From IMG/VR virus record IMGVR_UViG_2703718859_000020: a stretch of 6,425 nt of DNA, one strand, 5' to 3'. Shown piece after piece: positions 1 through 6,425 of the stretch. This stretch comes from a virus (Duplodnaviria > Heunggongvirae > Uroviricota > Caudoviricetes). The notes under the pieces are model-generated. The model was not told the DNA's origin, ran no database searches, and saw only the letters and a list, made by a program, of their open reading frames with translations. The position numbers and the translations under genes are program-made. Within the stretch, counting starts at the first letter, position 1, and each line of letters opens with the position of its first letter.

Positions 1-1230
1 ATGAGCAGAGCACTTAACAAACTGAGCGATACACAGCTGAGGAAAATCAACGGCACACCCGCCCAAAAAACAGCCTTTCTTAATGACGGTGGAAACCTGA
101 GCGTCAGGCATTCAACCAGTGGCCTTTTAACCTGGTATTTCACTTACAGGGCCGGAACGGGAAGGGGGGCACCACCGGAACGCATTAAGCTGGGAAATTA
201 TCCTGATCTGAGCCTGAAATCAGCCAGGGAAAAAGCCGCCCAGTGTCGCGCATGGCTGGCAGAGGGGAAAAATCCACGTCATGAAATGAATTACACCGTA
301 CAGGAAGCGTTAAAGCCGGTAACGGTTGGCGATGCGCTCACCTACTGGCTTGAGTCGTACGCAAAGGAAAACCGTGTGGATTATGACCCACTGAAAAAGC
401 GGCTAAATAATCACGTAATACAGCACATTGGCCCTATGCCGCTGGATAAATGCGAGCTACGGCACTGGCTGGCCTGTTTTGATCGGGTGGCAAAGAAAGC
501 CCCTGTTTCCGCCGGGTTCCTGCTACAGACATGCAAGCAGGCGCTTAAGTTCTGCAGGAAGCGGCGCTATGCAATCAGCAACGTTCTTGATGATATGAGT
601 GTGGCGGACGTTGGGAAAAAACCGGATATAAGTGAGCGTGTCTTAAGTAACAAAGAACTTGGCGAATTATTGCAGGCACTGGACAAAAAAATATTTTCCC
701 CTTACTACGTCGCACTAATCCGCCTCCTGATTGTTTTCGGATGCCGGACAGTAGAACTGAGGTTATCGGAGATCGGCGAGTGGGATTTTACCGAAATGCT
801 CTGGACCGTTCCGAAGGAGCACAGCAAAACGAAGGTAGCCATATTCCGGCCCATACCGGAAGCGATACTGCCGTTCGTCACGCAGCTGGTGGAGCAGAAC
901 AGGCACACGGGCTTATTGCTGGGGGAAGTGAAACAGGAAACCAGCGTATCGCAGTACGGCAGATTGGTGCACAGGAGGCTTAAACACCCTCACTGGTCAC
1001 TGCATGACATCCGGCGCACCTTTACAACCATGCTGAACGATTTAGGCGTTGATCCTCACGTCGTGGAGCAGCTTACAGGCCACCAGATGCCAGGAATGCA
1101 ACGCGTGTACAACCATTCCCGCTATATTGATGCGAAACGCAATGCGCTTGATATGTGGGTGGAGCGGTTGGAGATACTGGCGGGAACACATGAAAACGTA
1201 ACCACGCTACCAGTAACCAGAATAAAATAA
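1..1230 (+). CDS. int: Tyrosine recombinase, P4/CP4-57-type phage integrase (409 aa, apparently complete)
   Basis: Full-length ORF from ATG at 1 to TAA at 1228-1230. C-terminal catalytic signature of tyrosine recombinases: Arg in ...VFGCRTVELR..., His-x-x-Arg in ...LHDIRRTFTT..., and GH...VYNHSRY with the terminal Tyr nucleophile. N-terminal region (KLSD...NDGGNL...WYFTYR) resembles the arm-binding domain of P4-type integrases. Confidence 0.9.
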   Translation: MSRALNKLSDTQLRKINGTPAQKTAFLNDGGNLSVRHSTSGLLTWYFTYRAGTGRGAPPERIKLGNYPDLSLKSAREKAAQCRAWLAEGKNPRHEMNYTVQEALKPVTVGDALTYWLESYAKENRVDYDPLKKRLNNHVIQHIGPMPLDKCELRHWLACFDRVAKKAPVSAGFLLQTCKQALKFCRKRRYAISNVLDDMSVADVGKKPDISERVLSNKELGELLQALDKKIFSPYYVALIRLLIVFGCRTVELRLSEIGEWDFTEMLWTVPKEHSKTKVAIFRPIPEAILPFVTQLVEQNRHTGLLLGEVKQETSVSQYGRLVHRRLKHPHWSLHDIRRTFTTMLNDLGVDPHVVEQLTGHQMPGMQRVYNHSRYIDAKRNALDMWVERLEILAGTHENVTTLPVTRIK

Positions 1231-1247
1231 TTTTTTTCGTGTTTTTT

Positions 1248-1263
1248 CAGTATGCGCATACTG
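1248..1263. repeat. Perfect 16-bp palindrome CAGTATGCGCATACTG just downstream of the int stop
   Basis: Read directly; its reverse complement is identical. No loop, so it looks more like a dimeric protein-binding site than a terminator hairpin. Confidence 0.5.
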
Positions 1264-1413
1264 GATAAGTGCACAGATACAACGTGAAACAATGTGCAAT
1301 AACGTGACACAATCACGAACAAGAGGCCAAAAAGAATACAGATTTATAAGTTACTGATTTTTAATGCTCAGCTGGTTTTTTATACATTAGTGAATTACGC
1401 GTTAAAGCGTGCG

Positions 1414-1450
1414 AAAAAAGGCATAAAACAAGATTTTATGCCTTTGTATT
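1414..1450. terminator. Candidate bidirectional intrinsic terminator between int and alpA
   Basis: A6 run (1414-1419), stem GGCATAAAA (1420-1428), loop CAAGA, stem TTTTATGCC (1434-1442), then TTTGTATT. The stem is AT-rich, and the U-tract is better on the minus strand (6 U) than on the plus strand (3 U). Confidence 0.35.
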
Positions 1451-1604
1451 AACATGAATTTAAATGATTTTATCCTGATTATTCCTCTTTCTGTAAACCA
1501 TGCGACACCAACATTTGCCAACTCTGAATCATCCTGACACAATCAGACACATCCCAACGCAATAGAACACGAAATAACTCTTTAAGAAACGAAAGGGGGC
1601 AATA

Positions 1605-1793
1605 GTGTTAAGCACTGATCGGTTTATACGTGAAAAAGAATGCGAAAAGCTAACAGGCCTTAGCCGCTCATGCCGCTACCGCCTGGAAAAGGCCGGACAA
1701 TTCCCATCACGTCGTAAACTTGGCGGGCGTTCTGTTGGCTGGTCTTTATCTGAGGTTTTGGCCTGGAAGGATAGCTGCAAGGCAGTTCACTAA
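1605..1793 (+). CDS. alpA: AlpA-family (phage_AlpA / MerR-like HTH) transcriptional regulator, 62 aa
   Basis: GTG start at 1605 preceded by a strong SD (GAAAGGGGG, 1592-1600). The protein (RFIREKECEKLTGLSRSCRYRLEKAGQFPSRRKLGGRSVGWSLSEVLAW) matches the AlpA pattern of an HTH followed by a conserved G-W...E-W segment. Position immediately after a P4-type int is typical. Confidence 0.85.
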   Translation: MLSTDRFIREKECEKLTGLSRSCRYRLEKAGQFPSRRKLGGRSVGWSLSEVLAWKDSCKAVH

Positions 1794-1833
1794 AAAGACT
1801 GGCGGCACACAGCCACCACCAATCCATTATTGA

Positions 1834-1857
1834 CCGATACCGGGATCTCGGTATCGG
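1834..1857. repeat. 9-bp inverted repeat CCGATACCG-GGATCT-CGGTATCGG with a central GATC
   Basis: Read directly. It sits in the convergent zone between alpA (plus) and cassette B (minus). No flanking U-tract on either strand, so it is not a canonical intrinsic terminator. Confidence 0.4.
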
Positions 1858-1973
1858 GAATAAACGCCATAATACTGAGGTATAACCATGATGAAATATA
1901 CGCCCGTACAGGGGCGGGGATTCGTTCGCCCTGGTGAATCTGAAAAGCCATGCTATAGGGTATTTTCAGGCAT

Positions 1974-2003
1974 AAAAAAAGCGGTCCCGATATGGAACCG
2001 CCT
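1974..2003 (-). terminator. Rho-independent terminator for the minus-strand cassette transcripts
   Basis: Stem GCGGTCCC (1981-1988) / GGAACCGC (1995-2002), 7 of 8 bp paired, loop GATATG. On the minus strand it is followed by a run of 7 U (plus-strand A-run 1974-1980). Located 66 nt downstream of the cassette B second gene. Confidence 0.55.
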
Positions 2004-2069
2004 TTCTGAACAATTAACCCGCTGCGCCGTATGTGTCAACAATCATAAGCCCGAACATGATAACCGTGA

Positions 2070-2273
2070 TCAGGCTGGTGGGCAATTACCTTGCTTGTTG
2101 GGGCCGTATTGTGCTGCCATTTTCATCCGTTCAGAACGTGAATATTTTTTTAGAAACTCATCAAGGACAAAAGCGCATGGAGCGAATCTTTCTGATTCAT
2201 GCTCGAGCGCCATATTTTCGTGCTCTCTGTTCGTTTTTTGCGATGGTGTATTGGTTGATTCTTTATTGGTCAT
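2070..2273 (-). CDS. Small protein of unrecognised family, 67 aa (cassette B, gene 2)
   Basis: ATG at 2271-2273, stop at 2070. Paralogous to the 2787-3014 ORF: shared MTN start and motif F-x-L-[DE]-[DE]-F-x-x-K-Y-x-R (FVLDEFLKKYSRS vs FALEDFVDKYPRR), with the same 57-nt spacing from the upstream RHH gene. Weak SD. Confidence 0.45.
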   Translation of the reverse strand: MTNKESTNTPSQKTNREHENMALEHESERFAPCAFVLDEFLKKYSRSERMKMAAQYGPNKQGNCPPA

Positions 2274-2330
2274 TGTGTGTACCTGTAAAGCAATGCGCCG
2301 TAGTACCTCACGCCACGGCGCTGATAGTAA

Positions 2331-2510
2331 TTATTCTGATTCTTTGGCCTTGCGGCGCTGGCGGCGTTTGATCTCGCCTTTTGCTGCCGTAACTAGAAAT
2401 CCGGCGGTACTTTCGCCAGGTTCTTTAAGTTGCTCAATATCGGTCATTACCTCATGCGGGATTCTGACCGTTGTCATTTGTGATTTTGCGTTCTTTGCAC
2501 CTGTTGCCAT
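2331..2510 (-). CDS. Ribbon-helix-helix (CopG/Arc/MetJ-like) DNA-binding protein, 59 aa (cassette B)
   Basis: ATG at 2508-2510 with SD AGGAG 8 nt upstream. Sequence MATGAKNAKSQMTTVRIPHEVMTDIEQLKEPGESTAGFLVTAAKGEIKRRQRRKAKESE shows the RHH pattern: N-terminal beta-strand (TTVRIPHEV), helix A, a G-E-S-T turn, helix B, and a basic tail. The six-frame track extends this ORF to 2735, but the internal ATG with the SD is the supported start. Confidence 0.7.
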   Translation of the reverse strand: MATGAKNAKSQMTTVRIPHEVMTDIEQLKEPGESTAGFLVTAAKGEIKRRQRRKAKESE

Positions 2511-2530
2511 TTCTGGTTCTCCTGATAATC

Positions 2531-2623
2531 GGTGTATTTCAGTATACGCAAAAAAAAAGATAAAAAAAGTCTTGCGGTGTATTTCACCTGAATGTAGATT
2601 TAAAAATGAAGGTGAAATACACC
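2531..2623 (-). promoter_or_regulatory. Cassette B promoter with three copies of operator motif GGTGTATTTCACC
   Basis: Minus-strand -10 TATACT (plus 2541-2546) about 31 nt upstream of the start codon; the -35 is poor (T-rich). Motif copies at 2531-2542, 2576-2588 and, inverted, 2611-2623; the last two form a perfect 13-bp inverted repeat with a 22-bp spacer. Confidence 0.5.
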
Positions 2624-2634
2624 CAAAACAACAA

Positions 2635-2678
2635 CGCCCCGCAGTGATGGGAACACATACGGGGCGTCTAACCAAACC
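2635..2678 (-). repeat. Conserved GC hairpin (CGCCCCG-N18-CGGGGCG) followed by TCTAACCAA, upstream of the cassette B promoter
   Basis: Read directly; a homologous element lies upstream of the cassette A promoter (3385-3427). On the minus strand the hairpin is followed by a T-rich tract (TTGTTGTTTT). Confidence 0.4.
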
Positions 2679-2747
2679 ATTAATTGAGGTAACGATTATG
2701 GCTATAAAAGAGCATAGCTTACTCTTTATACACACACAAACGCCCCG

Positions 2748-2767
2748 GAAACGGAATAATCCGTTTC
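2748..2767 (-). terminator. Weak hairpin after cassette A gene 2 (GAAACGGA-ATAA-TCCGTTTC)
   Basis: 8-bp stem with a 4-nt loop, 20 nt downstream of the stop at 2787. Only a weak T-rich tract follows on the minus strand. Confidence 0.3.
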
Positions 2768-2786
2768 ATAGTTCGGTTTTGTGCAC

Positions 2787-3014
2787 TCATCCTGGCGGTC
2801 GGTTTTTGCCGGATTTAAGCCGCCGTGGGTATTTATCGACAAAATCTTCAAGGGCAAATTTTTCTGGTGGCACTAAGCGCGGCGCTGGTGGTGGTATTTT
2901 TGTTCTGGTTAGTTCTTCCTCAACTCTGGCGCAGGCTTCTGACTGCCTTTGCCGGATGATTTCATCATCTTGCGTTTGCGTGTCTTGTATTGGTGATAGT
3001 GTGTTGTTGGTCAT
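2787..3014 (-). CDS. Small protein of unrecognised family, 75 aa (cassette A, gene 2)
   Basis: ATG at 3012-3014, 57 nt after the RHH stop; paralog of the 2070-2273 ORF (same motif and position). Weak SD (AGGG). Confidence 0.45.
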   Translation of the reverse strand: MTNNTLSPIQDTQTQDDEIIRQRQSEACARVEEELTRTKIPPPAPRLVPPEKFALEDFVDKYPRRLKSGKNRPPG

Positions 3015-3071
3015 GATACTGCCCTGTAAAGCAATGCGCCGTAGTACCTCACACCACGGCGCTGATAGTGA

Positions 3072-3251
3072 TTATTCTGATTCTTTGGCCTTGCGACGCT
3101 GGCGGTATTCAACTTCCCGCTTTAATGCAGCTGTAACAAACTGCCCTGTACTTTCGCCGGGCATTTTTACCGCCTCAACATTGTTCATAACTTCATGTGG
3201 AACCCTTGCCGCAACTGTTTGTGATTTTGCGTTTACTGCTTTTGTCGCCAT
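3072..3251 (-). CDS. Ribbon-helix-helix DNA-binding protein, 59 aa (cassette A)
   Basis: ATG at 3249-3251 with SD GAGGGG 8 nt upstream. MATKAVNAKSQTVAARVPHEVMNNVEAVKMPGESTGQFVTAALKREVEYRQRRKAKESE is 36/59 identical to the cassette B RHH protein and has the same length and RHH pattern. Confidence 0.7.
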   Translation of the reverse strand: MATKAVNAKSQTVAARVPHEVMNNVEAVKMPGESTGQFVTAALKREVEYRQRRKAKESE

Positions 3252-3280
3252 GTTGAGCACCCCTCATAAAAAACAAATGC

Positions 3281-3353
3281 AGTATGCAGGAAAAAAAACA
3301 AGTGTTCAACACTTGACGTGTTTAACACCTCGATTTAAATTGGTGTTCAACAC
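3281..3353 (-). promoter_or_regulatory. Cassette A sigma70-like promoter overlapped by three palindromic operators GTGTT-N-AACAC
   Basis: Minus-strand -35 TTGAAC (plus 3304-3309), 17-bp spacer, -10 CATACT (plus 3281-3286), about 30 nt upstream of the start codon. 11-bp palindromes at 3302-3312, 3318-3328 and 3343-3353; the first overlaps the -35. Confidence 0.5.
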
Positions 3354-3384
3354 CTTATTTAGGCAAGGTGTAGAAACGACGAAA

Positions 3385-3427
3385 CCCCGCACTGTAGGAG
3401 CAGTAACGGGGCTTCTAACCAACAACG
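3385..3427 (-). repeat. Conserved GC hairpin (CCCCG-N17-CGGGG) followed by TCTAACCAA, upstream of the cassette A promoter
   Basis: Homolog of the 2635-2678 element, in the same position relative to the promoter. Confidence 0.4.
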
Positions 3428-3634
3428 TAAACGAGGAGCCGTTATGGTTGCCGTAAATCATATACCACACCTTGTACACACACAAACGGCCTTTGTGTGG
3501 CGTTTTCTGGCACTGAGTGCCGGAGAATCTCAAATAATCCACGTAACCGCCTGGACGGAACGCGAAGCACGTAACCGTTGCCCGTCAGGTTGTGTTGCTG
3601 TATTCGCCGCCCGTATTCGCCAGGGGGTAGGCTT

Positions 3635-3868
3635 ATGAGCCAGGAAATCACACTACAACAGGCAGCAGAACGCGCCCACCAAATCGAAGTTATTTGCGCA
3701 CTGGCAGAGGATTACCCTGGCATGATGACCGACAGCGAATCAGGGGCAATCATCGGCTTACTTAAACGCCTTAGCGGTGAGGTCTGCGTATTCCTGAGCG
3801 ATGAACAGGAAAGAAGAACGCTTATTTCTAACGAAAAAAAATGCGGAGGGGTACACCATGTGCAATAA
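3635..3868 (+). CDS. Small helical protein, 77 aa, first gene of the replication-side operon
   Basis: ATG at 3635 with SD AGGGGG 7 nt upstream. The track ORF 3578-3868 has an earlier start with no SD. Its stop overlaps the next ORF's start by 11 nt. Confidence 0.5.
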   Translation: MSQEITLQQAAERAHQIEVICALAEDYPGMMTDSESGAIIGLLKRLSGEVCVFLSDEQERRTLISNEKKCGGVHHVQ

Positions 3869-4094
3869 CATCCGTCCGGACGCAGCCGCCGAAGCCATCA
3901 TAACGCTAATGCATGCGCTGATTGATATTTCTGTTATTGCTGACAAGGCGCATAAGCACGCCACCAGTGAAACAGAATATGCAGGGGCTTTCGTTCCTCA
4001 TTCGCTGGCGGTTATGCAACTTAGTGCTGATATGGCGCTGAATGAGGCAGGCAAAATTCTTACCGCAGATATTCAAGGGGCGCACCATGCATGA
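3858..4094 (+). CDS. Small helical protein, 78 aa, apparent paralog of the flanking ORFs
   Basis: ATG at 3858 with SD GGAGGGG 6 nt upstream. Shares a ...S-E-x-x-x-AGAF[VI]-x-x-[SL]L... motif and a preceding [AW]L-x-D-x-S segment with the 4087-4302 ORF. The start could instead be 3801 (no SD). Confidence 0.5.
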   Translation: MCNNIRPDAAAEAIITLMHALIDISVIADKAHKHATSETEYAGAFVPHSLAVMQLSADMALNEAGKILTADIQGAHHA

Positions 4095-4302
4095 TGACCG
4101 TTATTTTAAATTAATGAGCCATGCAGAAAACGCACTGACTAACAGTGAATGCTTGCGGAAAATATTGCTTATCTGGCTTGATGGTTTAAGTGATGCGCCG
4201 GAAGGTGAACGTGAATCTAATCTTGCTGGTGCGTTTATTTCATTACTCGATACGGTAATCACCGAATTAAATAAAGCGATCGAAATTCACGATAAAAAAT
4301 AA
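4087..4302 (+). CDS. Small helical protein, 71 aa, apparent paralog of the 3858-4094 ORF
   Basis: ATG at 4087 with SD AAGGGG 6 nt upstream; ATGCATGA overlap with the previous stop. Contains NLAGAFISLL, matching YAGAFVPHSL in the previous ORF. Confidence 0.5.
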   Translation: MHDDRYFKLMSHAENALTNSECLRKILLIWLDGLSDAPEGERESNLAGAFISLLDTVITELNKAIEIHDKK

Positions 4303-4318
4303 ACGCGGAATAAAAACC

Positions 4319-4618
4319 ATGAAAAAGAAAATTTCTGGCTTAACTGCTAGTGGCAACACTCACCCTAAATTTACGCGCGGCGATATTTACCGCGACCAGT
4401 ACGGCGGCACGGTAACGATTAAAGGTGTAGAAGAGCGACGCATTACCTACCGCCGTGAAGGCTACGAATATGACTGCGTGATGCCTGTTTATCAGTTCCG
4501 GCGTGATTTTTCTCTGGTACAGACCGCGCCGCATAACGTGCCCACCAGCAGGGAGAAAGCACGCGCCAATATTCAGAAGATGAAAAACATGATTAACGGA
4601 TTCAGGGGCAAGAAATGA
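4319..4618 (+). CDS. Hypothetical protein, 99 aa
   Basis: ORF whose stop overlaps the rep start (ATGA at 4615-4618), suggesting translational coupling. Weak SD. No family recognised. Confidence 0.45.
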   Translation: MKKKISGLTASGNTHPKFTRGDIYRDQYGGTVTIKGVEERRITYRREGYEYDCVMPVYQFRRDFSLVQTAPHNVPTSREKARANIQKMKNMINGFRGKK

Positions 4619-6012
4619 AAAGCGCACCGAACTTAAAAAAACAGCCTTACGACAAGATGACCGAAGTCATCATTTTTGCGGGTAGTGATGCGTGGGCACA
4701 TGCGAAACAGTGGCAGGAACAGGACGGGCGACTGGCTGGCGATAATGTGCCTCCCATTGTGCTGGCTGATGATCAACTGGATGAACTGGCAGACCTGAGA
4801 ATCATCGACGAGGGGCGCTATTGTGTCCGGCTGTACAAGGCAGGCCACATCAGGCCATCAAATATTAATGCCATTGCGCACAAGCTGGCGGCGGCGGGCG
4901 TAACTGATGCGAATTATTACCCCGAAGGGATACACAGCCAGAAGCGGGAGAACTGGCGCGAATATCTGGAACGGGAGCGGGGGAAAAAGCCAGGGGAAGA
5001 ACACCACCAGCGAAAAACCACGCTACCGATGAGCGTTGGATCTGCCGGATACGACACGCAATTAGATTACGTGGTAAAGGGGATTATTCCGGCATCGTCG
5101 CTTTGCAGCATATACGGGGCGAGCGGTTCCTATAAATCATTCCTTGCGGGTTCGTGGGCGTGTCACGTTTCCACGGGCCGCCAGTGGGGAGGCCGCAGGG
5201 TGGCGCATGGCGCTGTTCTCTATGTGGTTGGTGAAGGCGGTATCGGCGTTCCGCGTCGTGTAAAAGCCTGGGAGGTTGTGCACGGTGAGCAGGTGAAAAA
5301 TCTGTATCTGGTAAACCGTCCCATCTTTCCGGCGGTCCCGCTTGATGTTGATGAAATGGTTATCGCTGCCCGTCAGGTGGAGCGGGAAACGGGTAAACCT
5401 GTACGCATGATTATTCTGGATACGCTGGCGCGTTGCTTTGGTGGGAATGATGAAAATGATTCCCGTGATATGGGGGCGTTTATCCGTGGTTGTGACGAAC
5501 TGAAACGACGCACAGGGGCCACGGTGCTGGTGGTTCACCATTCCGGCAAGGATGAGACGAAAGGCGCGCGCGGTTCCAGTGCATTTCGTGCATCACTGGA
5601 TGCTGAATACCGGATACGCAGGGAGGACGCAGGAAGCGAAGCGCTGGTTATCTCATGCACCAAAATGAAGGACGCGGAGGAACTCAAAGAGGCTGCCTAT
5701 GATTTGCGGGTGGTGGAGCTTTTTACCGACGCTGACGGGGAGTTAATCACGTCGCTGGTGGTGGTGGATAAGCCGCGCCCTCCCGTTGAACTGGAGCGCA
5801 TCGAGGAGGCAGGGAACAAGACGGAAAACCATACCGCGCTATGGGGGTGCATCCGTTCACGCACACAGAACGGCGACAAGTGCACGATCCCGCTGTTACG
5901 TGATGACATGAAAAAACTGGGGTATGAAATGAAAAACTTCCGGCGCTGGCTGTACAAGCTGGAAAAAGATGGGGTTATTCGTATCGATGGGGATGATGTA
6001 GCGCCGCTATAA
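4615..6012 (+). CDS. Replication-associated RecA-fold P-loop ATPase (RepA / AAA_25-like helicase or initiator), 465 aa
   Basis: SD CAGGGG 6 nt upstream. Walker A-like SIYGASGSYKSF (residues ~165-176, deviant with Tyr where the second Gly is expected), Walker B VRMIILDTLAR (~263-273), and VLVVHHSGKD typical of RepA/DnaB-like proteins. N-terminal ~150-aa domain and a basic C-terminal ~70-aa region consistent with a DNA-binding winged helix. Confidence 0.8.
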   Translation: MKSAPNLKKQPYDKMTEVIIFAGSDAWAHAKQWQEQDGRLAGDNVPPIVLADDQLDELADLRIIDEGRYCVRLYKAGHIRPSNINAIAHKLAAAGVTDANYYPEGIHSQKRENWREYLERERGKKPGEEHHQRKTTLPMSVGSAGYDTQLDYVVKGIIPASSLCSIYGASGSYKSFLAGSWACHVSTGRQWGGRRVAHGAVLYVVGEGGIGVPRRVKAWEVVHGEQVKNLYLVNRPIFPAVPLDVDEMVIAARQVERETGKPVRMIILDTLARCFGGNDENDSRDMGAFIRGCDELKRRTGATVLVVHHSGKDETKGARGSSAFRASLDAEYRIRREDAGSEALVISCTKMKDAEELKEAAYDLRVVELFTDADGELITSLVVVDKPRPPVELERIEEAGNKTENHTALWGCIRSRTQNGDKCTIPLLRDDMKKLGYEMKNFRRWLYKLEKDGVIRIDGDDVAPL

Positions 6013-6203
6013 AAGTGAGGAGCAAAAGCGAGGGGGGTAGAAAGAGGGCCAAAATTAGCCTGCTCTCCCTCACTTTTCGACCTGTATACATCCTCAAAAG
6101 TGAGGGGTAAAAAAATACTTATGAAACACACACATAGAAAAACCAAAAATCCCAACTGCGACGAAGTGAGACGCTTGAAAAAGTGAGGCAAAAAAGTGAG
6201 AGG
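6011..6203. repeat. Iteron cluster: candidate replication origin immediately 3' of rep
   Basis: Copies of AAAGTGAGG or close variants at 6012-6020, 6025-6033 (AAAGCGAGG), 6097-6105, 6163-6171 (GAAGTGAGA), 6180-6188 and 6194-6202, plus an inverted copy CTCCCTCACTTTT at 6065-6077. The two sets flank an AT-rich segment (about 6106-6160). Confidence 0.6.
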
Positions 6204-6212
6204 TTGCGAGAA

Positions 6213-6425
6213 ATGACCCAAAAACGCAGAGACAGAACAGAGCCGAAATATAAGGCGTTAGATATGGCTGAACTGGCTTTAAAGGTGGCAATCAGAACGA
6301 TAGACCGCCACGCGGGGGAAGGATACGCGAAAGCACATCCCGAACTGATAAGCGCATTCATGACCACGACGGCGGCAAATTTTGCCACGCTGACAGAGCG
6401 GGAGATTGCCGAAGCGGAACAGGTA
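6213..6425 (+). CDS. Hypothetical protein, 5' part only (runs off the window end)
   Basis: ATG at 6213 with GAGAGG upstream; open frame for 71 codons to the window edge (MTQKRRDRTEPKYKALDMAELALKVAIRTIDRHAGEGYAKAHPELISAF...), with ordinary helical-protein composition. Not in the supplied track because it has no stop inside the window. Confidence 0.45.
   Translation, partial: MTQKRRDRTEPKYKALDMAELALKVAIRTIDRHAGEGYAKAHPELISAFMTTTAANFATLTEREIAEAEQV

What the first reader, a model, noticed from the sequence alone, without database searches (positions are those of the whole stretch)
1..6425. Overall architecture points to a replicative satellite or island with a cargo slot between alpA and rep
The order int, alpA, (minus-strand cassettes), small-ORF operon, rep, iteron origin resembles enterobacterial PICI-type elements, where AlpA activates the replication/excision operon. 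The minus-strand cassettes interrupt the otherwise plus-strand backbone and are bounded by their own terminator, consistent with an insertion or variable cargo position. The window starts exactly at the int ATG and ends inside an ORF, so the att site, packaging genes and element boundaries are not visible.
Basis: inference. Interest (0 to 1): 0.35.

Follow-up and report, generated by a model that had tools for sequence, protein, structure and literature searches.

The report
Phage-satellite (PICI) left arm, regulatory switch
The window is the integration, regulation and replication half of a known kind of E. coli phage satellite (a capsid-forming PICI), and the "cargo-like" minus-strand cassettes look like its swappable regulatory switch rather than cargo.

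Summary
The described layout is real: int, alpA, four minus-strand small genes, a chain of small plus-strand ORFs, a RepA-type helicase and a clustered iteron origin. Contigs carrying the identical Rep protein are about 15-kb islands with 21-bp att repeats, a full capsid and terminase module, and no tail or lysis genes. That makes this the left arm of a capsid-forming PICI, a known family.

At least 9 arrangements occur in 16 E. coli loci, and it is empty in Xenorhabdus relatives. It is not cargo, and no defence or toxin family matches.

Each cassette is a ribbon-helix-helix-like (YlcI/YnfO) gene plus a small partner gene. It is divergent from the promoter of the icd-to-rep operon. That promoter carries three operator-like repeats whose sequence changes together with the protein's predicted DNA-reading strand. 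The window holds two such modules of different specificity in tandem.

Two further features turned up:
- A conserved about 89-nt minus-strand structured element with a terminator lies over the icd start. It is not in Rfam.
- A 522-codon plus-strand ORF stays open across the whole cassette region and links alpA to icd.

The kind of element is ordinary. The regulatory anatomy may be undescribed.

The parts
1..1230 (+). Tyrosine integrase (409 aa). In relatives attL lies 27-47 bp upstream of its ATG, outside the window.
   Evidence: Pfam Arm-DNA-bind_3 at 7.8e-18 and Phage_integrase at 4.7e-17. The att repeat CGGTGTAGTTAATGGTGTAGT is in L003 at 5121-5141 and 20333-20353, and in L096 it starts 47 bp before the int ATG.
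1417..1445 (+). Terminator-like hairpin after int, followed by TTTGTATT.
   Evidence: (I14) and 77: -14.8 kcal/mol, z -3.8. A weak Rfam BSnc120 match here is far below its gathering score and is noise.
1605..1793 (+). alpA (62 aa), the PICI activator homologue.
   Evidence: PF05930 at 5e-18. The role of AlpA comes from PMC6092414.
1796..1825 (-). Distal minus-strand terminator, abutting the alpA stop codon.
   Evidence: 12-bp stem followed by UUUUUAG, -17 kcal/mol, z -3.7. A GC-rich equivalent sits at the same place in other genera (read from the sequences).
1888..3456 (+). Bridging ORF of 522 codons. It has a GAGG Shine-Dalgarno and an ATG, runs antisense through both cassettes, and its TAA lies 13 nt into icd.
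   Evidence: It has 0 stops in 525 codons, against 28 and 47 in the other plus-strand frames. In DNA not antisense to any gene the counts are 0 of 254 against 18 and 32, and 0 of 20000 shuffles stay open. The same holds in 13 loci from several genera. Its product is not conserved: substitutions by codon position are 13/15/13, and it has no Pfam or PADLOC hit.
1976..2003 (-). Proximal minus-strand intrinsic terminator of the cassette transcripts.
   Evidence: 12-bp stem followed by U7, -19.8 kcal/mol, z -4.4.
2070..2273 (-). 67-aa partner gene of the left module, function unknown.
   Evidence: phrog_21027, unknown function. The motif ERFAPCAF.L..FLK.Y is shared with 62-aa partners in L006, L089, L090 and L091.
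2331..2510 (-). Left RHH-like gene (YlcI/YnfO family, 59 aa). Predicted reading strand QMTTVRIPH.
   Evidence: NCBIfam NF041551 at 3.8e-17. The codon-position test favours this frame.
2531..2623 (.). Left operator set: GGTGTATTTCA at 2531-2541, and the same core (longer copies) at 2576-2589 and inverted at 2610-2623, with a TTGCGG -35-like box.
   Evidence: (I4). The same repeat accompanies the same reading strand in L039 and L043.
2621..2709 (-). Left copy of the conserved minus-strand structured element (anti-SD hairpin plus terminator hairpin plus U-rich tail).
   Evidence: Covariance model R1, 82.4 bits, E 3e-15. Fold -23.8 kcal/mol.
2698..2745 (+). Remnant of an icd-like 5' end (MAIKEHSLLFIHTQT), in frame with the bridging ORF. 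It marks the right edge of the left module.
   Evidence: Alignment of the two units and direct repeats D1, D3 and D8 at spacings of 741-747 bp.
2787..3014 (-). 75-aa partner gene of the right module, function unknown.
   Evidence: No family hit.
3072..3251 (-). Right RHH-like gene (YlcI/YnfO family, 59 aa). Predicted reading strand QTVAARVPH.
   Evidence: NF041551 at 2.1e-16. 74 homologues, one named CopG-like RHH. AlphaFold2 pLDDT 86.9 with an extended N-terminus, helix, GES turn and helix.
3301..3354 (.). Right operator set (AGTGTTCAACACT 3301-3313, GTGTTTAACACC 3318-3329, GGTGTTCAACACC 3342-3354) interleaved with a plus-strand promoter-like site (TTGACG 3313-3318, TAAATT 3336-3341).
   Evidence: L035 has the same repeat with the same reading strand. 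In L096 the protein allele and the repeats are swapped together.
3369..3458 (-). Right copy of the conserved minus-strand structured element, lying over the icd Shine-Dalgarno and ATG.
   Evidence: R1 at 68.4 bits, E 4.4e-12. Fold -21.9 kcal/mol on the minus strand against -16.6 on the plus strand. Covariation.
3444..3638 (+). icd-like first gene of the replication operon (64 aa).
   Evidence: NCBIfam NF033153 at 5e-18.
3635..4302 (+). Three overlapping small ORFs (77, 78 and 71 aa), function unknown.
   Evidence: PHROGs 1478, 5146 and 2196, all of unknown function. Start and stop codons overlap, as read in the sequence.
4319..4618 (+). DUF4222 protein (99 aa). Its stop overlaps the rep start (ATGA).
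   Evidence: PF13973 at 2.9e-24.
4615..6012 (+). Rep, a RepA-type helicase (465 aa).
   Evidence: PF13481 AAA_25 at 1.9e-43. phrog_2850 full length. PGAP names it 'helicase RepA family protein'.
6012..6201 (.). Origin: iterons at 6012, 6025, 6068 (inverted) and 6097, then an A+T-rich stretch at about 6106-6160, then iterons at 6163, 6180 and 6193.
   Evidence: The layout matches the published description of two iteron sets flanking an AT-rich region (PMC6092414).
6213..6425 (+). 5' part of an 83-aa ORF that runs off the window.
   Evidence: It is full length in L002 and L003 at 11599-11850.

Best explanation
The window is the integration, regulation and replication arm of an Escherichia phage-inducible chromosomal island. 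It is most likely the capsid-forming type, integrated between roxA and phoQ.

The DNA between alpA and the replication operon is the island's regulatory switch, present here as two tandem modules of different specificity. Each module has three parts:
- A minus-strand operon with a ribbon-helix-helix-like protein (YlcI/YnfO family) and a small partner gene.
- A divergent promoter region with three operator repeats matched to that protein.
- A short structured minus-strand element, ending in a terminator, that lies over the ribosome-binding site and start codon of the first plus-strand gene (icd-like).

**Proposed working (inferred).** In the resting island the RHH protein binds its repeats, shuts the icd-to-rep promoter and regulates itself. 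A short antisense transcript masks the icd start. When a helper phage turns on alpA, AlpA boosts its own promoter. Transcripts then run from alpA through the 522-codon bridging ORF, whose translation would keep them safe from Rho and collide with cassette transcription. They continue into icd, the small ORFs, DUF4222 and rep, and Rep fires the iteron origin.

**Shown:** the gene content, the relatives, the att repeats, the variability, the protein-operator covariation, the conserved structure and the open frame.
**Inferred:** repression by the RHH protein, the existence of the antisense RNA, and the role of the bridging ORF.
For: **Identity**
- The exact Rep protein lies on islands with capsid, protease, portal, head-closure, connector, HNH, TerS and TerL genes and no tail or lysis genes.
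- L003 is 99.8% identical over window 1-3929, and L002 is 99.9% identical over 3409-6425.
- L096 is collinear with the whole window. It differs at 116 positions, 115 of them within 3001-3500.
- The 21-bp att repeats lie 15.2 kb apart.

**Regulatory module**
- NF041551 hits at about 1e-17.
- Purifying selection acts in the RHH frame: differences by codon position are 952, 697 and 1745.
- All 11 modules, from 9 genera, have three repeats at fixed places relative to the promoter boxes.
- Seven reading-strand classes each go with their own repeat, and the same class goes with the same repeat in different genera.
- L096 swaps the protein allele and the repeats together in an otherwise identical element.
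- L002, L088, L091 and L092 have an unrelated Arc-like RHH at the same spot.

**Structured element**
- Minus-strand consensus energy is -29.1 kcal/mol, against -9.6 on the plus strand.
- 93% of cells pair, 13 of 25 pairs show compensatory change, and 0 of 500 shuffles reach any measure.
- The covariance model finds 50 full-length hits, all on the minus strand, in 80 sources (79 related loci plus the window).

**Open frame:**

**Published background**
- AlpA activates Gram-negative PICIs.
- A global repressor in Gram-negative PICIs was called 'unclear' (PMC6092414).
Against: - The packaging half is outside the window. The same left arm also occurs on classical, non-capsid-forming PICIs (L091, L093), so the capsid-forming assignment rests on relatives.
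- The RHH fold is not confirmed by any database match: Foldseek gave no hits, the PDB profile search gave only chance hits, and the alignment to Arc was weak.
- No promoter for the proposed antisense RNA is established. There is only a conserved TGTAAA-17-TATGCT, and it also encodes a conserved N-terminal peptide.
- Published work shows AlpA overexpression alone induces such islands, so a repressor is not strictly required.
- L001 has a 1-nt deletion in an A8 run that breaks the 5' part of the bridging ORF.
- No expression data were available.
Confidence: 0.7

Rival explanations
1. One reading: the minus-strand cassettes are accessory cargo (for example defence or fitness genes) inserted in a variable bay between alpA and rep, unrelated to control of the island.
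For: - The region is variable. It is absent in Xenorhabdus relatives, where alpA is followed within about 110 nt by pri-rep.
- At least 9 arrangements occur in 16 E. coli loci.
- The cassettes have their own terminators.
- PICIs are known to carry accessory and defence genes (PMC6092414; 10.1101/2025.02.11.637232).
Against: - No PADLOC, Pfam or NCBIfam defence or toxin match.
- The published defence hotspots of cf-PICIs flank the packaging module, not alpA (10.1101/2025.02.11.637232).
- The repeats overlap the -35 and -10 boxes of the icd promoter and covary with the protein.
- The module sits at the same place in 9 genera.
- The plus-strand frame is kept open across it.
Confidence: 0.15
2. 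Each cassette is a type II toxin-antitoxin (addiction) pair: an RHH antitoxin followed by a small toxin that stabilises the island.
For: - The gene order (RHH first, small gene second, autoregulatory palindromes) is typical of such pairs.
- The RHH protein of L002 weakly resembles the HicB family, below threshold.
Against: - The 67-aa and 75-aa partners match no toxin family.
- They are poorly conserved, and no homologous partner ORF was found downstream of the RHH gene in several genera.
- hyp67 pairs with two unrelated RHH types (window and L088), which does not fit a cognate toxin-antitoxin pair.
Confidence: 0.08
3. The long plus-strand ORF is the real gene (a long Icd-like protein, as PGAP sometimes annotates it) and the small minus-strand ORFs are spurious shadows.
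For: - PGAP annotates long or pseudogenised 'Icd-like' genes over this stretch in L089, L090 and L091 and omits the minus-strand genes in L091.
- In several loci the long ORF is in frame with the Icd domain.
Against: - Substitutions in the RHH region are lowest at RHH codon position 2 (697) and higher at position 1 (952). That is the pattern expected if the RHH frame is the selected one.
- RHH proteins are about 54% identical across genera, with invariant motifs.
- The product of the long ORF shows no codon periodicity and no family hit.
Confidence: 0.04
4. The element is a P4-type satellite or a decayed prophage rather than a PICI.
For: - int, an AlpA/Vis-like regulator, an Icd-like ORF and a helicase or primase are also found in P4-like elements (PMC10085698, PMC13612085).
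- Relatives are sometimes annotated with an 'ash family protein'.
Against: - No sid, delta or psu genes in any relative.
- No C4/CI RNA match.
- No similarity to any phage record.
- Relatives are 15 kb with a complete head and terminase module but no tail or lysis genes.
Confidence: 0.03

Closest known systems
Capsid-forming PICIs (prototype EcCIEDL933; bioRxiv 10.1101/2022.09.08.507074, 10.1101/2025.02.11.637232; SatelliteFinder cfPICI model, PMC10085698)
   Same: - The order int-alpA-...-rep-ori.
- Relatives with the identical Rep carry capsid, protease, portal, adaptor, connector, HNH, TerS and TerL genes, are about 15 kb and lack tail and lysis genes.
- The literature already notes a variable gene downstream of alpA.
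   Different: - The packaging module itself is outside the window.
- This element carries two tandem RHH modules, which is rare (33 of 558 Rep-positive E. coli genomes).
- I found no published description of the RHH-operator modules, the antisense element or the bridging ORF.
Classical Gram-negative PICIs (EcCICFT073; PMC6092414)
   Same: - int and alpA are co-oriented at the left end.
[quoted passage not shown]
- Rep is followed by two iteron sets flanking an AT-rich region.
- The same left arm is found on classical PICIs (L091, L093).
   Different: - In EcCICFT073, plus-strand genes follow alpA directly, and a global repressor was reported as unclear.
- Here a divergent RHH gene with operators sits between alpA and the operon.
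Phage P22 immI region (mnt, Pant, arc, ant and the sar antisense RNA); comparison from general knowledge
   Same: - An RHH repressor is divergent from the promoter it controls.
- Operators overlap the promoter.
- A short antisense RNA lies over the ribosome-binding site of a downstream gene.

This is the closest match to how the module may work.
   Different: - No sequence homology was shown. The alignment to Arc is in the RHH register but not significant.
- There is no antirepressor gene.
- The downstream operon here is for replication.
- This is a functional analogy only.
P1 immI (c4-icd-ant) and P4 immunity (CI RNA, leader ORFs, Rho-dependent termination); comparison from general knowledge
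   Same: - The first gene is Icd-like (NF033153).
- In P1 and P4, translation of a leader ORF decides whether transcription reaches the downstream genes. This is the logic proposed here for the bridging ORF and icd.
   Different: - No C4/CI RNA family match on either strand.
- The conserved structured element here is on the opposite strand.
- There is no ant gene.
SaPI/Gram-positive PICI master repressor Stl/Rpr (PMC6092414)
   Same: A repressor gene divergent from the excision and replication operon, with allelic variation between islands.
   Different: - Stl is a different protein type and is transcribed in the same direction as int.
- De-repression by a helper protein is shown for Stl and untested here.
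- These islands also need AlpA.

Membership tests
Gram-negative PICI (PMC6092414) | int at the left end, co-oriented with an alpA-type regulator | tested here: met
   int at 1-1230 and alpA at 1605-1793, both on the plus strand.
Gram-negative PICI (PMC6092414) | Replication initiator followed by an origin with two iteron sets flanking an AT-rich region | tested here: met
   Rep at 4615-6012 (AAA_25, 1.9e-43). Seven iterons lie within 6012-6201, around an A+T-rich stretch at about 6106-6160.
Gram-negative PICI (PMC6092414) | Specific att site with direct repeats at both ends, and a size of about 10-18 kb | tested here: inconclusive
   The window has no flanks. The nearest relatives have 21-bp repeats 15.2 kb apart between roxA and phoQ (L003; attL also in L096). 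The window's own contig was not recovered.
Gram-negative PICI (PMC6092414) | No phage tail or lysis genes | tested here: inconclusive
   None are present in the six contigs with the identical Rep, nor in L096 as far as it extends. This cannot be checked for the window's own contig.
Gram-negative PICI (PMC6092414) | Induction, replication and transfer dependent on a helper phage | not testable with these tools
   Needs experiments.
Capsid-forming PICI (10.1101/2022.09.08.507074; PMC10085698) | Own capsid, protease, portal, head-tail adaptor and connector, HNH, TerS and TerL | tested here: inconclusive
   All of these are present downstream of the identical Rep in L002-L007, and all but the cut-off end in L096. 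A 95.7%-identical rep sits in a classical PICI in O157 (L091), so the window's own right half remains unseen.
P4-like satellite | sid, delta and psu genes, and a C4/CI-type immunity RNA | tested here: not met
   No Rfam C4 match at E up to 1 on either strand. None of these genes is in any relative.
Ribbon-helix-helix DNA-binding proteins (Arc/MetJ/CopG type) | N-terminal strand, helix, G-x-S/T turn, helix | tested here: inconclusive
   The AlphaFold2 model has pLDDT 86.9, with an extended N-terminus (1-18), helix 19-28, a GES turn and helix 35-58. The invariant G32-E33-S34 is seen, and one homologue is named CopG-like RHH. Against this, Foldseek gave no hits, the PDB profile search gave only chance hits, and hhalign to Arc gave E 0.007 with probability 5%.
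Ribbon-helix-helix DNA-binding proteins (Arc/MetJ/CopG type) | Binds repeated operator sites, with specificity set by the strand residues | tested here: inconclusive
   Binding was not tested. Indirect support is strong: seven strand classes each have their own triple repeat, the pairings are consistent across genera, and the L096 swap changes both together.
Type II toxin-antitoxin module | A recognisable toxin partner next to the RHH antitoxin | tested here: not met
   The 67-aa and 75-aa partners match no toxin model in Pfam, NCBIfam, PHROGs or PADLOC.
Known anti-phage defence systems (PADLOC-DB 2.0) | At least one protein matching a defence model | tested here: not met
   The only hit is a chance-level Cas8g match (17.6 bits) for the 67-aa protein.
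P1 immI-type module (c4-icd-ant) | An Icd-like first ORF plus a C4 antisense RNA and an antirepressor | tested here: not met
   The Icd-like domain is present (NF033153, 5e-18). There is no C4 RNA and no ant gene.

The most novel reading that the evidence does not exclude
The alpA-to-icd interval holds an undescribed three-layer switch common to enterobacterial PICIs and cf-PICIs.

1. An allelic RHH repressor with matched operators acts as the 'missing' master repressor and immunity-type determinant of Gram-negative PICIs.
2. A conserved cis-antisense small RNA of about 85 nt, absent from Rfam, masks the start of the first replication-operon gene (icd or pri-rep).
3. A non-conserved but always-open 'bridging' ORF is kept only so that AlpA-driven transcripts are translated, and so escape Rho, while crossing the antisense repressor cassette.

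The window's tandem hetero-specific modules would then give double immunity.
Probability: 0.3. Interest if true: 0.65.

Novelty: new member of a known kind. Interest (0 to 1): 0.42.

Why it matters
As an element it is ordinary. cf-PICIs are common in Enterobacteriaceae, and near-identical copies sit in public E. coli genomes.

The useful part is the anatomy of the region after alpA. [quoted passage not shown] The 2025 cf-PICI preprint lists this region as variable and of unknown function.

The analysis supplies concrete, cheap targets for working out how these satellites stay silent, how a helper phage wakes them, and whether islands are hetero-immune to each other:
- matched protein-operator alleles, including a natural swap in an otherwise identical island;
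- a conserved antisense structured element found in 50 places;
- a selected open frame across the cassette region.

It also flags a recurrent annotation conflict. Pipelines call either the small RHH genes or a long 'Icd-like' ORF or pseudogene over the same DNA.

Tried and rejected
- **Rfam, both strands, E up to 1.** No C4/CI or other relevant family. The two weak hits (BSnc120, a snoRNA) are noise.
- **tRNA scan.** None found.
- **Phage genome collection.** No DNA match to the window and no tblastn match to the RHH protein.
- **RHH fold.** The PDB sequence profile search gave only chance hits, and Foldseek of the AlphaFold2 model gave no hits. The fold assignment stays pattern-level.
- **PADLOC, and Pfam on the bridging-ORF product.** Nothing for the cassettes or the bridging-ORF product.
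- **The window's own contig.** Not recovered. The best is L096, identical except for a swapped 3001-3500 segment.
- **Bridging ORF as a composition artefact.** Rejected. Shuffles within each non-genic segment never stay open, and the other frames carry 18-32 stops.
- **Bridging ORF as a conserved protein.** Rejected. There is no codon periodicity and no conservation beyond the shared DNA.
- **Conserved 'DKTKAAPHGRQ' start of the ORF in other genera as a peptide motif.** Rejected. It is the complement of a GC-rich minus-strand terminator next to alpA (read from the sequences).
- **Promoter for the antisense element.** Only a weak, conserved TGTAAA-17-TATGCT was found, and it doubles as coding sequence. 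Left open.

Full report
**1. Observation check**

- A tyrosine integrase at 1-1230 (Arm-DNA-bind_3 and Phage_integrase).
- AlpA at 1605-1793 (PF05930, E 5e-18).
- Four small minus-strand genes at 2070-2273, 2331-2510, 2787-3014 and 3072-3251.
- A plus-strand chain:
  - icd-like at 3444-3638 (NF033153, 5e-18);
  - three small ORFs;
  - a DUF4222 protein at 4319-4618;
  - a RepA-type helicase at 4615-6012 (AAA_25, 1.9e-43).
- Seven AAAGTGAGR iterons, all inside 6012-6201, in two sets around an A+T-rich stretch. About 2.4 matches are expected over the whole window.

Two strong minus-strand terminators stand between the cassettes and alpA. One is at 2003-1976 (-19.8 kcal/mol, z -4.4, followed by U7). 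The other is at 1825-1796 (-17 kcal/mol, z -3.7). The window begins at the int ATG and ends inside an ORF that starts at 6213.

**2. What the element is**

No phage genome resembles the window, but 1877 of 5426 complete E. coli genomes hold part of it.

The exact Rep protein is encoded on contigs where it lies in an island. The gene order is int, alpA, a variable stretch, DUF4222, rep, two small ORFs, SSB, PerC, then capsid, S78 protease, portal, head-closure protein, connector, HNH, TerS and TerL. There are no tail or lysis genes.

The window is a mosaic of such islands.
- Positions 1-3929 are 99.8% identical to L003, and 3409-6425 are 99.9% identical to L002.
- L096 is collinear with the whole window. 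It differs at 116 positions, 115 of them within 3001-3500.

In L003 the island is flanked by the 21-bp direct repeat CGGTGTAGTTAATGGTGTAGT, 15.2 kb apart, between roxA and phoQ. L096 has the left copy starting 47 bp before int.

This layout is that of capsid-forming PICIs (bioRxiv 10.1101/2022.09.08.507074; PMC10085698). AlpA is the published, helper-dependent activator of Gram-negative PICIs (PMC6092414).

One caveat applies. The same left arm also sits on classical PICIs (L091 in O157:H7, and L093), so the capsid-forming call rests on relatives.

**3. Is the stretch after alpA variable?**

Yes.
- Islands with a 100% identical Rep carry two YlcI-type cassettes (L003, L004, L007), one unrelated 63-aa gene (L002), one cassette with a longer protein (L006), or no YlcI-type gene (L005).
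- Further E. coli loci add more combinations, giving at least nine arrangements in 16 loci.
- Rep is present at 80% coverage or more in 558 complete E. coli genomes. The double cassette is present at that level in 33.
- In Xenorhabdus relatives the interval is essentially empty, and alpA is followed within about 110 nt by pri-rep.
- A cf-PICI preprint already names the gene downstream of alpA as a variable region of unknown function (10.1101/2025.02.11.637232).

**4. What the cassettes are**

The genes at 2331-2510 and 3072-3251 belong to the YlcI/YnfO family (NF041551, about 1e-17). Homologues occur at the same place, about 1-1.5 kb upstream of rep and on the minus strand, in cf-PICI-like islands of Xenorhabdus, Leclercia, Superficieibacter, Kosakonia, Phytobacter, Enterobacter, Kluyvera and Rosenbergiella.

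They are real genes. Across 12 homologues, differences by codon position are 952, 697 and 1745.

Their pattern is that of ribbon-helix-helix (RHH) proteins. An AlphaFold2 model (pLDDT 86.9) gives an extended N-terminus, a helix, an invariant G-E-S turn and a second helix. No structure database match confirms the fold.

Every one of 11 modules has the same intergenic plan:
- about 20 nt from the RHH start there is a first repeat beside a CAGTATAC box;
- a second repeat follows just after a TTGAC/TTGAG -35 box;
- a third repeat lies 22-40 nt further on;
- then come a conserved hairpin, a Shine-Dalgarno sequence and the ATG of the icd-like gene.

The repeat sequence tracks the predicted DNA-reading strand of the protein.

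| Reading strand | Repeat | Modules |
|---|---|---|
| QMTT[VI]RIPH | GGTGTATTTCA | window left, L039, L043 |
| QT[VI]AARVPH | GTGTTCAACAC | window right, L035 |
| QS[LV]TARI[PA]H | GTGTAAGAC | L041, L034, L096 |
| Four further classes | Each has its own repeat | |

L096 is a natural experiment. It is the same island as the window except that about 450 bp are replaced, and the protein allele and all three repeats change together. L002, L088, L091 and L092 carry an unrelated Arc-like RHH gene (ending in GIEPKG) at the same spot, and L002 has its own palindromes.

No defence or toxin model matches any cassette protein.

I therefore read the cassettes as allelic regulatory modules, meaning a candidate repressor with its operators, and not as cargo. 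The window's two modules are a tandem duplication. The units align from about 2263 to 2745 and from 3004 to 3490, and the left unit keeps only the first 16 or so codons of its icd gene.

**5. A conserved structured element over the icd start**

The hairpin between the third repeat and the icd ribosome-binding site is conserved and shows compensatory changes.

Folded as the minus strand, the region gives a much better consensus: -29.1 kcal/mol against -9.6, with 25 pairs. A 5' hairpin presents the anti-Shine-Dalgarno CCUC in its loop. A 14-pair hairpin follows, and then a U-rich tract.
- On a MAFFT alignment, 93% of cells pair and 13 pairs show changes on both sides.
- None of 500 shuffles reaches any of the five measures, and slid controls score far lower.
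- By my count from the pair table, about 52 cells are G-U pairs. These would be A-C mismatches on the plus strand.

A covariance model finds 50 full-length matches in 80 sources (79 related loci plus the window), all on the minus strand. Two are in the window, at 2621-2709 and 3369-3458. Others are in Xenorhabdus islands, where the element overlaps the start of pri-rep itself.

Rfam has no match.

The simplest reading is a short cis-antisense RNA, or at least a minus-strand terminator, over the start of the first replication-operon gene. Its promoter is not established. The conserved TGTAAA-17-TATGCT upstream also encodes the N-terminal peptide MADTQHTQTRPKF, which Icd-like and Pri-Rep proteins share.

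**6. An open plus-strand frame across the cassettes**

The longest open frame in the window is on the plus strand, at 1888-3456, antisense to all four cassette genes.
- It has no stop in 525 codons. The other two plus-strand frames have 28 and 47.
- In the 774 nt that are not antisense to any gene, it has 0 stops in 254 codons against 18 and 32. None of 20000 composition-preserving shuffles stays open.
- It has a GAGG Shine-Dalgarno sequence and an ATG.
- It ends at a TAA 13 nt inside icd.

From there to rep every gene overlaps or nearly abuts the next, as read in the sequence. Apart from the 94-nt untranslated gap between the alpA stop (1793) and the bridging-ORF ATG (1888), alpA-to-rep is therefore one near-continuous chain of ORFs.

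The same open frame spans the embedded gene in 13 loci from several genera, whatever the cassette type. In L096 it survives 115 substitutions and two compensating 1-nt indels.

Its product is not conserved as a protein. Substitutions fall 13/15/13 by codon position, the alignment gaps seen are 3 and 6 nt, and no family matches it.

L001 is a counter-example: a 1-nt deletion in an A8 run breaks the 5' part of the frame.

**7. How it most likely works**

*Shown*
- The parts and their conservation.
- The covariation between protein and operators.
- The variability of the interval.
- The conserved minus-strand structure.
- The open plus-strand frame.

*From the literature*
- AlpA is required for induction and activates its own promoter.

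*Inferred*
1. In the resting island the RHH protein occupies its three repeats, closing the icd promoter and limiting its own expression.
2. The antisense element blocks the icd start.
3. On helper infection, AlpA-driven transcripts leave alpA and pass the cassette terminators, which act on minus-strand transcripts only.
4. Those transcripts are translated through the bridging ORF. Translation protects them from Rho and opposes cassette transcription.
5. Ribosomes are delivered to icd and on to rep, and Rep then opens the iteron origin.

The logic in which translation of a leader ORF gates transcription is that known for P1 icd-ant and the P4 leader. The arrangement of a divergent RHH repressor with an antisense RNA resembles P22 immI. 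Both comparisons rest on general knowledge and are analogies, not homology.

**8. Comparison, novelty and verdict**

Membership in the Gram-negative PICI family is met for every feature that can be tested inside the window. For the remaining features it is met in the nearest relatives. P4-like, toxin-antitoxin and defence-system memberships fail.

The kind of element is known, and near-identical copies are public, so the finding as given is a new member of a known kind and of modest interest. I found no published description of the regulatory anatomy in the held library. It bears on an open point, namely whether Gram-negative PICIs have a repressor, and this raises the score somewhat.

Three limits remain:
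- no expression or binding data were available;
- the RHH fold is not confirmed by a database match;
- the window's own flanks are unseen.

Noticed in passing
window 1828-1868: A 41-nt insertion carrying the perfect palindrome CCGATACCGGGATCTCGGTATCGG lies between the alpA-proximal terminator and the bridging-ORF start. It is absent from L002, L006, L088 and L091 in the alignment. It does not disturb the ORF because it lies upstream of the ATG.
   Followed up: partly
L003 5121-5145 and 20333-20353; L002 6411-6435; L005 5554-5596: The att core contains a 12-nt unit (GGTGTAGTTAAT) that is tandemly repeated at the left end. Islands at other chromosomal sites (tqsA; an rcnR-side site) use variants of the same kind of repeat (GGTGTAGTCACT, TGTGTGGTCAGTT) together with diverged integrases.
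   Followed up: partly
window 3444-3490; L011 8918-8960: The N-terminal peptide MA(D)xQHTQTRPKF is shared by Icd-like proteins and by the Pri-Rep protein of Xenorhabdus islands. The first dozen or so codons travel with the upstream leader or antisense element rather than with the protein family.
   Followed up: partly
L089 3489-3858, L090 3384-3663 and 3870-4241, L091 8370-8963: There is an annotation conflict. PGAP calls long or pseudogenised 'Icd-like' ORFs over the cassette region and in L091 omits the embedded minus-strand RHH and partner genes. Other pipelines call the small minus-strand genes instead.
   Followed up: yes
window 3001-3500 compared with L096 9144-9643: Two otherwise identical islands (1 mismatch outside this stretch) differ by 115 substitutions here. 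This is a clean allelic replacement of one RHH gene and its operators, which points to recent recombination confined to the module.
   Followed up: yes
L088 3714-4169: The 67-aa partner gene is paired in L088 with an Arc-like 64-aa RHH protein instead of the YlcI-type protein seen in the window. Partner genes and RHH genes therefore reassort independently.
   Followed up: no
L001 about 15972 (equivalent to window 1974): A 1-nt deletion in the A8 run of the proximal terminator shifts the 5' part of the bridging ORF out of frame in this complete genome. It is either a true exception or a homopolymer sequencing error.
   Followed up: no
L091 (O157:H7, roxA-phoQ site): An int, alpA and rep of the same types (rep 95.7% identical) are joined to a classical PICI packaging set (lambda-E-like capsid protein, head decoration protein, Nu1-type TerS) instead of the cf-PICI head module. 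The left arm is therefore exchanged between the two satellite families, as PMC10085698 also reports.
   Followed up: partly
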